A program made the translations under genes and the position numbers. The notes beneath the pieces are model-generated. The model was not told the origin of the DNA, searched no databases, and saw only the letters and a program-made list of their open reading frames with translations. A DNA stretch of 64,000 nucleotides. It comes from Eledone cirrhosa (taxonomy: Eukaryota). Positions within the stretch are counted from its first letter, which is position 1, and each line of letters starts with the position of its first letter. Positions 2,429-3,852 of the stretch are shown here, one piece after another. The DNA lies in contig OZ024746.1 in assembly GCA_964016885.1 (NCBI GenBank), forward strand, positions 51,150,001 through 51,214,000, read 5' to 3'.

Positions 2429-3801
2429 CTGGATCAACAAGATTGCCACTGTCCTTATCTACTGTCTAACCAAACAAAAGCCAAGGGAACGGACTTGGTA
2501 CAATCGACGAGATTGCCACTGAACCTATCTACTGTCTAGCGAAACCACAGCCAAGGGAACGAGCTTGGACGGATCAACGAGATTGCCACTGTCCTTATCT
2601 ACTGTCTAGAGAAACCACAGTCAACGGAACGAGCTTGGGTGGATCAACGAGATTGCCACTGTCCCTATCTACTGTCTAGCGAAACCACAGCCAAGAGAAC
2701 GAGCTTGGACGGAATAACGAGATTGCCACTGTCCCTATCTACTGTCTATCTACTGTCTAGCGAAACCACAGCCAAGGGAATGAGCTTGGACGGATCAACG
2801 AGATTGCCACTGTCCTTATCTACTGTCTAGAGAAACCACAGCTAAGGGAACGAGCTTGGACGGATCAACGAGATTGCCGGTGTCCCTATCTACTGTCTAG
2901 CGAAACCACAGCCAAGGGAACGAGCTTGGACGGATCAACGAGATTGCCACTGTCCTTATCTACTGTCTAGAGAAACCACAGTCAACGGAACGAGCTAGGG
3001 TGGATCAACGAGATTGCCACTGTCCCTATCTAATGTCTAGTGAAACCACAGCCAAGGGAACGGGCGTGGCTGGATCAATGATATTGCCACTGTCGCTATC
3101 TACTGTCTAGCGAAACCAAAGCCAAGGGAGCGGGCTTGGCTGGATCAATGAGATTGCCACTGTCCCTATCTACTCTCTAGCGCAACCACAGCCAATGGAA
3201 CGAGCTTGGACGGAATAACGAGATTTTCACTGTCCCTATCTACTGTCTAGCCAAACCACAGCTACGGGAACGAGCTTGGACGGATCAACGAGATTGCCAC
3301 TGTCCCTATCTACTGTCTATCTACTGTCTAGCGAAACCACGGCCAAGGGAATGAGCTTGGACGGATCAACGTGATTGCCACTGTCCTTATCTACTGTCTA
3401 GAGAAACCACAGTCAACGGAACGAGCTTGGGTGGATCAACGAGATTACCACTGTACCTATCTACTGTCTAGCGAAACTACAGCCAAGAGAACGGGCTTGG
3501 CTGGATCAATGAGATTGCCACTTTCCCTATCAACTGTCTAGCGAAACCACAGCCAAGGGAACGAACTTGGACGGATCAACGAGATTGCCACTGTCTTTAT
3601 CTACTGTCTAGCGAAACCACAGCCAAGGGAACGAGCTTGGACGGATCAACGAGATTGCCACTGTCTTTATCTACTCTCTAGCGAAACCACAGTCAACGGA
3701 ACGAGCTTGGGTGGATCAACGAGATTGACACTGTGCCTATCTACTGTCTAGCGAAACCACAGAGAAGGGAACGAGCTTGGACGGATCAACGAGATTGCCA
3801 C

Positions 3802-3815
3802 TGTCCCTATCTACT
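3802..3815 (+). other. R1 non-LTR retrotransposon 28S target / 14-bp TSD motif TGTCCCTATCTACT (representative; present in many monomers)
   Basis: The motif is read directly from the sequence. Its identity as the insect R1 target duplication, about 74 bp downstream of the R2 site, is recalled knowledge. Confidence 0.75.
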
Positions 3816-3816
3816 G

Positions 3817-3830
<14 letters not shown>

Positions 3831-3850
<20 letters not shown>

Positions 3851-3852
3851 CT
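3831..3852 (+). other. Inverted repeat AGCCAAG-GGAACGGG-CTTGGCT, the rRNA helix H72 hairpin, retained fully or partly in each monomer
   Basis: A perfect 7-bp stem with an 8-nt loop in CT-ending monomers. A 5-bp CCAAG/CTTGG stem in the commonest class. Confidence 0.8.

What the first reader, a model, noticed from the sequence alone, without database searches (positions are those of the whole stretch)
3783..3852. Array of hundreds of R1-retrotransposon target sites: possible decoy or sink for rDNA-specific elements
Seen: TGTCCCTATCTACT or a 1-2 nt variant occurs once per monomer, and no element is inserted in 64 kb. Knowledge (recalled): this is the R1 target duplication in the 28S hotspot also used, slightly upstream, by R2 and R4. 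The R2 site itself (TTAAGGTAGCC) is not included. Inference: this window alone holds a target number comparable to a typical rDNA copy number. The array could titrate R1 endonuclease or RNP, trap insertions in heterochromatin, or have been created by break repair at this hotspot. Neutral origin remains fully possible.
Basis: partly seen in the sequence, partly recalled or inferred. Interest (0 to 1): 0.78.

Follow-up and report, generated by a model that had tools for sequence, protein, structure and literature searches.

The report
Satellite DNA copied from 28S gene
A 70-base piece of the large ribosomal RNA gene is repeated about 910 times in a row across the whole window; nearly every copy spans the spot where R1 jumping genes insert, but no copy holds an insertion and the spot is not clearly better preserved than the rest, so this is likely a satellite repeat from an unusual source rather than a decoy.

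Summary
The window is one 70-bp tandem array (912 full monomers); 857 of 912 carry the 14-bp R1 target duplication within two mismatches, none holds an insertion, and the R2 site is absent. But the whole monomer, not just the 14-mer, is large-subunit rRNA core: its consensus matches natural LSU at 66 of 70 positions. The R1 site lies inside the unit; the unit's ends are 20 and 35 bases from the R1 nicks and 39 from the R2 nick. On a tree-aware test the target mutates as fast as the rest (a crude count hinted otherwise). Known sinks fill with insertions (about 1-21% of grasshopper B-chromosome rDNA units); here 0 of 912. The array grows by 10-57-monomer block duplications. Best reading: a satellite amplified from a 28S coding fragment, carrying the R1 site as a passenger (0.75). 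Decoy or sink: about 0.07. Host lineage, host 28S and R1 presence are untested. Satellites from rDNA spacers and 5S are known; I found none reported from a short 28S-core piece. New variant of a known kind; interest 0.38.

The parts
1..64000 (+). Uninterrupted 70-bp tandem array (satellite), 912 full monomers plus partial ends; runs off both ends of the window
3781..3850 (+). One monomer cut at its inferred natural ends: 70 contiguous bases of eukaryotic LSU (28S) rRNA core, columns -2 to 67 (column 1 = 3784)
   Evidence: consensus equals the majority of 60 unique natural LSU haplotypes at 66 of 70 columns when cut here
3802..3815 (+). 14-bp R1 target-site duplication sequence (columns 19-32); R1Bm nicks the bottom strand at its left edge and the top strand at its right edge
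   Evidence: PMC1919474
3797..3797 (+). Column 14: G in 883 of 912 monomers where the silkworm target has C; 5 bases from the first nick, at the rim of the 10-bp region needed for that nick
3816..3816 (+). Column 33: G in 872 of 912 monomers where the silkworm target has A; a purine here fits the R1Bm consensus, and G occurs in 9 of 60 natural haplotypes (one of the 9 is L083, where this base already lies outside the rRNA)
3821..3850 (+). Match to Rfam RF02543 LSU_rRNA_eukarya positions 2359-2388, 30 of 30, including a 5-bp rRNA hairpin; 31.2 bits, below the gathering score of 50 because it is so short
3788..3797 (+). First arm of an imperfect 10-bp internal direct repeat (columns 5-14; second arm columns 57-66, 3840-3849); 7 of 10 alike in natural LSU, 9 of 10 in the array consensus
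57609..57660 (+). One of three 52-bp monomers (also 59481, 61420): an 18-bp deletion; at this copy it was read and runs between the two arms of the internal repeat
183..263 (+). One of eleven 81-bp monomers (183 to 13099): an 11-bp duplication bounded by a 3-bp microhomology; it spans the second R1 nick but does not start at the first nick, so it is not an R1 target duplication
22475..32134 (+). Largest recent block duplication: 57 monomers at 22475-26464 copied at 28145-32134, 0.04 differences per monomer

Best explanation
The window is a tandem array of a 70-bp piece of the 28S/LSU rRNA coding core, and it is likely a non-coding satellite that carries the R1 target as a passenger. Shown: the unit is 70 contiguous rRNA bases, copies differ by about 14% pairwise, and they are arranged in irregular, recent duplications of 10-57 monomers. 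Inferred steps: (1) a 70-bp piece of a 28S gene was duplicated head to tail or circularised, perhaps helped by the weak in-register likeness of its two ends; (2) it took 1-4 substitutions and was amplified by unequal exchange or rolling-circle copying; (3) it now turns over like other satellites, by point mutation biased against G and C, slippage at short internal repeats and kilobase block duplication, with no sign of selection on the R1 site or on the rRNA hairpin. A (peri)centromeric or other heterochromatic position is likely by analogy, not shown.
For: 66 of 70 columns equal the natural LSU majority; only columns 4, 14, 33, 61 differ, and at column 61 the rRNA base survives in 362 of 912 monomers. 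514 distinct monomers, mean pairwise difference 10.0 of 70, 44 block duplications of 10 or more monomers, no short fixed higher-order period. Parsimony steps per site: target 13.4, rest 14.1, permutation p 0.18; first-nick region 16.0 against 13.6, p 0.38; columns 14-35 p 0.15; G and C change about 1.8 times as often as A and T. Hairpin pairs are kept in only 78-95% of distinct monomers, with no common compensating change, and site variability does not track natural LSU variability (rho 0.18, p 0.27, 40 columns). 0 insertions in 912 and 0 tandem 14-bp duplications. rDNA spacers and 5S genes are known satellite sources (PMC12692304 passage and reference list; PMC11202950 passages).
Against: A random 70-mer of LSU covers both R1 nick regions only 1.5% of the time (49 of 3332 starts), although this finding was picked out of a very large scan and the region is among the most recognisable in rDNA. 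A crude frequency count made columns 14-35 look more conserved than the rest (p 0.017-0.024, one of four windows tried, rank 13-14 of 70), and rare alleles are somewhat fewer in the 14-mer (p 0.076). The end-to-end likeness is weak: 7-8 of 14 in most natural haplotypes, reached by about 4% of window pairs. Location, host and total array size are unknown.
Confidence: 0.75

Rival explanations
1. Decoy or sink: the array soaks up R1 endonuclease or R1 insertions and so spares working 28S genes.
For: Most copies look cuttable: 730 of 912 keep the 5-base first-nick core and 707 of 912 the second, both fitting the R1Bm consensus. Drosophila R1 inserts into repeats with only 4-9 bp of target identity and into a 22-bp 28S piece in the spacer of D. 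ananassae (PMC2718515 section 14). Silent B-chromosome rDNA is a proposed sink for R2 (PMC3954772 passages). The 1.5% coincidence and the crude conservation hint.
Against: A sink should be full: 150 to over 1,500 R2 in 7,000-15,000 B-chromosome units against 0 of 912 here (upper bound 0.33-0.81%). No scars. No extra conservation on the tree-aware test. Only 1 of 912 monomers has the 10-bp first-nick region exactly as in silkworm 28S; the effect of that one change is untested. No evidence that the host has R1.
Confidence: 0.07
2. Neutral today, but born from repair of a break made by an rDNA-specific element or homing nuclease at this hotspot.
For: The piece lies in a hotspot: of 108 natural loci, 7 break off at the R2 nick (column -41) and 1 at the right edge of the 14-mer. 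Resection from a nick inside the unit could leave ends elsewhere (inference).
Against: The unit's ends (columns -2 and 67) are 20 bases before the first R1 nick, 35 after the second and 39 after the R2 nick; no element sequence is in the unit. The R4 site, which lies between R2 and R1 from recall, could not be placed.
Confidence: 0.08
3. The array acts on rDNA through homology: as a source of small RNAs against 28S-containing transcripts (including R1 read-through RNA), or as a pairing or nucleolus-tethering site.
For: Monomers average 91% identity to a consensus that is 94% identical to natural LSU, enough for small-RNA or pairing effects (inference). R1 transcripts often carry flanking 28S sequence (PMC2718515 passage).
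Against: No RNA run holds more than 0.07 of the words (small shares, not examined further); no sign of selection to stay rRNA-like, as the non-rRNA base at column 61 is now the commoner one (529 of 912).
Confidence: 0.08
4. Assembly or sequencing artefact (concatemer).
For: All three holding runs come from one sample, which may be the source of the assembly.
Against: 514 distinct monomers, nested block duplications of different ages and shared rare indels are not what a concatemer of one amplicon gives.
Confidence: 0.02

Closest known systems
rDNA-derived satellite DNAs: intergenic-spacer-derived repeats of potato, Vicia, Nicotiana, tomato and Phaseolus; 5S-derived repeats of Hoplias, Physalaemus (PcP190) and Plantago (PLsatB) (listed in PMC12692304 and PMC11202950, passages and reference titles seen)
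   Same: Tandem array whose unit comes from ribosomal DNA and has diverged from it.
   Different: Here the source is a short piece of the most conserved 28S coding core, with no spacer and no promoter.
Lamprey Germ1 repeat (as described in PMC9734144, passages)
   Same: A repeat family that holds truncated 28S sequence at the R2 hotspot.
   Different: Germ1 joins a 28S fragment to an R2-derived region with the junction at the R2 site; this unit is 70 bp of 28S alone, with no element sequence and ends off the nicks.
22-bp 28S piece with the R1 site in the rDNA spacer of Drosophila ananassae (PMC2718515 section 14)
   Same: A displaced copy of the R1 target outside the 28S gene.
   Different: That copy sits inside the rDNA unit and eight R1 elements were found in such units; this array has hundreds of copies and no insertion.
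B-chromosome rDNA of Eyprepocnemis plorans as a sink for R2 (PMC3954772, passages)
   Same: Extra, non-working copies of a 28S target site proposed to absorb insertions.
   Different: Whole rDNA units, with measured excess of insertions; here short fragments with none.
SINE28 of mammals (named in PMC10946416 section 11)
   Same: Repeat built from 28S fragments.
   Different: Dispersed retroposon, not a tandem array.

Membership tests
Satellite DNA | Long head-to-tail array of a short monomer | tested here: met
   period 70 over 1..64000, 912 monomers, one strand
Satellite DNA | Concerted turnover: diverged monomers with recent block duplications | tested here: met
   14% pairwise difference; 44 block duplications of 10-57 monomers
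Satellite DNA | Heterochromatic or (peri)centromeric position | not testable with these tools
   no genome held
rDNA-derived satellite | Monomer homologous to part of an rDNA unit | tested here: met
   Rfam RF02543 2359-2388; 66 of 70 to natural LSU majority
rDNA-derived satellite | Derivation from the host's own rDNA | not tested
   host 28S sequence not obtained; comparison is with other organisms' LSU
R1 target site | 14-bp duplication sequence with both nick cores | tested here: met
   857 of 912 within 2 mismatches; cores intact in 730 and 707 of 912; definition from PMC1919474
R1 target site | Full 10-bp first-nick region as in silkworm 28S | tested here: not met
   1 of 912; column 14 is G in 883; effect of the single change unknown
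Retrotransposon sink or decoy | Insertions accumulate at the displaced target | tested here: not met
   0 of 912, no scars; only 64 kb of an array of unknown size
Retrotransposon sink or decoy | Target kept better than the rest of the unit | tested here: inconclusive
   tree-aware p 0.15-0.38, rare-allele p 0.076 for the 14-mer; crude count p about 0.02 for one of four windows
Retrotransposon sink or decoy | Host carries an active element for this site | not testable with these tools
   no genome; host coded as organism A

The most novel reading that the evidence does not exclude
A host has turned the landing site of its rDNA parasite into a satellite: hundreds to thousands of near-perfect R1 targets in silent chromatin that bind or waste the R1 machinery (or feed small RNAs against R1 transcripts carrying 28S tails) and so lower the share of broken rRNA genes. 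It would be a genome defence made of target mimics, testable by relating array size to R1 occupancy.
Probability: 0.07. Interest if true: 0.85.

Novelty: new variant of a known kind. Interest (0 to 1): 0.38.

Why it matters
It shows the birth of a large satellite from a datable, extremely conserved source: because the parent sequence barely changes, the four founder changes and the later mutation pattern can be read directly, which is rarely possible for satellites. It is also a practical trap: such an array can cross-react with 28S probes and inflate read-based rDNA copy counts (inference). And whatever its function, it is a natural experiment on what besides sequence makes R1 choose rDNA: if the host has active R1 and the array stays empty, chromatin or nucleolar context must decide.

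Tried and rejected
No whole genome is held, so host 28S and R1 could not be searched; L083 and L035 lie in no held record, so the sequence beside L083 could not be shown to be R1. Host reads were not examined on the array, which leaves open the host's own 28S letters, insertions elsewhere and presence in independent individuals. Viral contigs holds no match to the rRNA-like half. Small shares (0.05-0.07) in 13 of 16 holding runs, gill and peat metagenomes among them, are no evidence of host or habitat. Rejected: the 11-bp duplication as an R1 scar (wrong start, microhomology explains it); selection on the rRNA hairpin; a fixed dimer or other short higher-order unit (lags 1-12 all 9.98-10.48 differences, the same as the mean); strong microhomology at the unit's ends (other lags score as well); CpG-specific decay (18.8 steps against 17.5 for other G and C). 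'C at column 14 in 60 of 60 natural loci' is circular, because the search pattern fixed columns 6-32, and is not used as evidence. Breaks at columns -81 to -84 are an edge effect of my threshold. Literature searches for a satellite from 28S/26S coding sequence and for a satellite decoy of rDNA elements found none in the listings shown (20 of 55, 3 of 3, 40 of 71, 0, 1 of 1, 2 of 2, 15 of 22); the library lacks most subscription papers. The R4 and R6 coordinates were not found; PMC1074724 is not held. Earlier scan notes hold nothing on this genome or sequence.

Full report
Observation. The window is a single tandem array. Tandem Repeats Finder covers 1-61485 and 61476-64000 with period 70. Cutting at an anchor gives 912 full monomers: 859 of 70 bases, 33 of 69, 11 of 81, 3 of 71, 3 of 52, 2 of 68, 1 of 72; the partial ends are array too and no monomer lies on the reverse strand. 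The 14-mer has 858 matches at up to two mismatches against 0.39 by chance; per monomer, 336 of 912 are exact, 388 have one mismatch, 133 two, 55 more. The R2 motif is absent (1 match at two mismatches, 12.1 expected).

What the unit is. Rfam matches 3821-3850 to eukaryotic LSU rRNA positions 2359-2388, 30 of 30 (run on 1-8000 only; 19 matches, all below the gathering score). To see the rest I fetched 108 natural LSU loci from metagenomes with a published R1Bm primer (about 1,300 exist). 77 had full flanks, giving 60 unique haplotypes; 31 were dropped for short flanks. Numbering the monomer from window 3784 as column 1, the array consensus equals natural columns -2 to 67 at 66 of 70 positions; the differences are columns 4, 14, 33 and 61. 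The array's base at column 4 occurs in 7 of 60 natural haplotypes and that at column 33 in 9 of 60 (one being L083, where the base is outside the rRNA), so they may be host letters; at column 61 the rRNA base persists in 362 of 912 monomers. Columns 6-32 were fixed by my search pattern, so natural variation there is not measured. The R1 site is thus one part of a 70-bp rRNA fragment. From recall, not from a call, vertebrate and flowering-plant 28S differ from the array around columns 26-27 and 36, so the host is probably neither; an arthropod is possible but nothing here shows it. Three runs of one sample hold 30-38% of the sampled words; that sample may be the source of the assembly.

The R1 site. 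PMC1919474 (parts 1-3 of 6 read) places the first, bottom-strand nick at the left edge of the 14-mer and the second at its right edge, needs about 5 bp either side of the first nick, and gives a five-base consensus that allows A or G after the cut. The natural loci agree: L083 holds a 28S piece from column -41 (the R2 nick) to column 32 (the right edge of the 14-mer) with other sequence on both sides, the layout expected of an R2 end and an R1 start in one gene, though the flanks were not identified. The R2 nick is 60 bases before the first R1 nick. In the array the nick cores are intact in 730 and 707 of 912 monomers; column 33 fits the consensus; column 14, five bases from the first nick, differs from silkworm 28S in 910 of 912. 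Since Drosophila R1 uses sites with 4-9 bp of identity (PMC2718515, passages and section 14), most monomers are probably usable targets.

Tests of the decoy or sink. First, occupancy: 0 insertions in 912 monomers, a 95% upper bound of 0.33% per site, 0.58% for 514 distinct monomers, 0.81% for the 367 best sites. The published sink, grasshopper B-chromosome rDNA, has 150 to over 1,500 R2 in 7,000-15,000 units (PMC3954772, passages), and eight R1 elements were found in D. ananassae rDNA units carrying a 22-bp displaced target. Second, scars: no tandem 14-bp duplication; the 11-bp duplication in 11 monomers spans the second nick but starts five or more bases after the first and sits between two 3-base repeats. 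Third, conservation. Counting changes on a tree of the 514 distinct monomers removes it: 13.4 steps per site in the 14-mer against 14.1 elsewhere (p 0.18), 16.0 against 13.6 at the first nick (p 0.38), p 0.15 for columns 14-35 and 0.26 without the four subfamily columns; rare alleles give p 0.076 for the 14-mer and 0.36-0.80 for the others. A tree of 70-bp recombining monomers is rough, so weak selection is not excluded. Fourth, origin: the ends at columns -2 and 67 miss the R1 and R2 nicks by 20, 35 and 39 bases. In favour of the decoy remains that only 1.5% of LSU 70-mers span both nicks, a figure weakened by picking from a large scan.

How it most likely works. The array behaves as a satellite. 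Monomers differ by 10.0 of 70 on average, 569 of 912 have an identical copy, and 44 duplicated blocks of 10-57 monomers, some nearly identical, are nested through the window without a fixed short period. G and C change about 1.8 times as often as A and T, without a CpG excess. The rRNA hairpin is broken in 5-22% of distinct monomers per pair. Length variants arise at short internal repeats: the changes at columns 14 and 61 lift a 10-bp internal repeat from 7 to 9 of 10 (P about 0.007 for four random changes, noticed after the fact), and the 52-bp monomer read at 57609 is a deletion between its arms. This offers a plain cause for the column-14 change, copying from the other arm, with no need for R1. 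The founding duplication, the amplification route and a heterochromatic position are inferred.

Comparison and novelty. Reviews list rDNA spacers and 5S genes as satellite sources (PMC12692304 and PMC11202950, passages). 28S pieces occur in lamprey Germ1 with an R2-derived part (PMC9734144, passages) and in SINE28 (PMC10946416, passages, outline and section 11). Searches listed no satellite made of a short 28S-core piece and no satellite decoy; I saw listings and abstract starts only, not all hits were listed, and subscription papers are mostly missing. PMC6895275 and PMC5035012 (passages) gave no R4 coordinates. No supplements were read. I file it as a new variant of rDNA-derived satellites; it works like them, and it fails the one sink feature that could be tested. 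Verdict: real, modestly unusual, interest 0.38; the decoy reading keeps about 0.07 and would deserve 0.85 if true.

Noticed in passing
window 3788-3797 and 3840-3849 (every monomer); 57609, 59481, 61420: Two of the four founder-type changes each make one arm of an internal 10-bp repeat more like the other (7 to 9 of 10); the three 52-bp monomers are 18-bp deletions, and the one read lies between the arms. Suggests out-of-register copying inside the monomer.
   Followed up: partly
window 183-13099: All eleven 81-bp monomers lie in the first 13 kb, on several different monomer backgrounds, and all three 52-bp monomers in the last 7 kb: the array has regional marks although its local consensus hardly changes.
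   Followed up: partly
L083 (whole locus, 542 bases, minus strand): A 28S piece bounded exactly by the R2 nick and the right edge of the R1 duplication, with a 3-base deletion; looks like an rRNA gene holding both R2 and R1. Flanks not identified.
   Followed up: partly
L009, L011, L015, L020, L043, L053 (break at column -41); L071 (column -4); L035 (column 37); L033, L039 (both sides): Many natural LSU loci are interrupted near this hotspot: at the R2 nick, and at other points that may be introns or dispersed rRNA fragments.
   Followed up: no
window 43894-50119 and 16735-24084: Direct tandem duplications of 44-52 monomers (3.1-3.7 kb) with under 0.2 differences per monomer: very recent unequal exchanges, or local assembly duplication.
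   Followed up: partly
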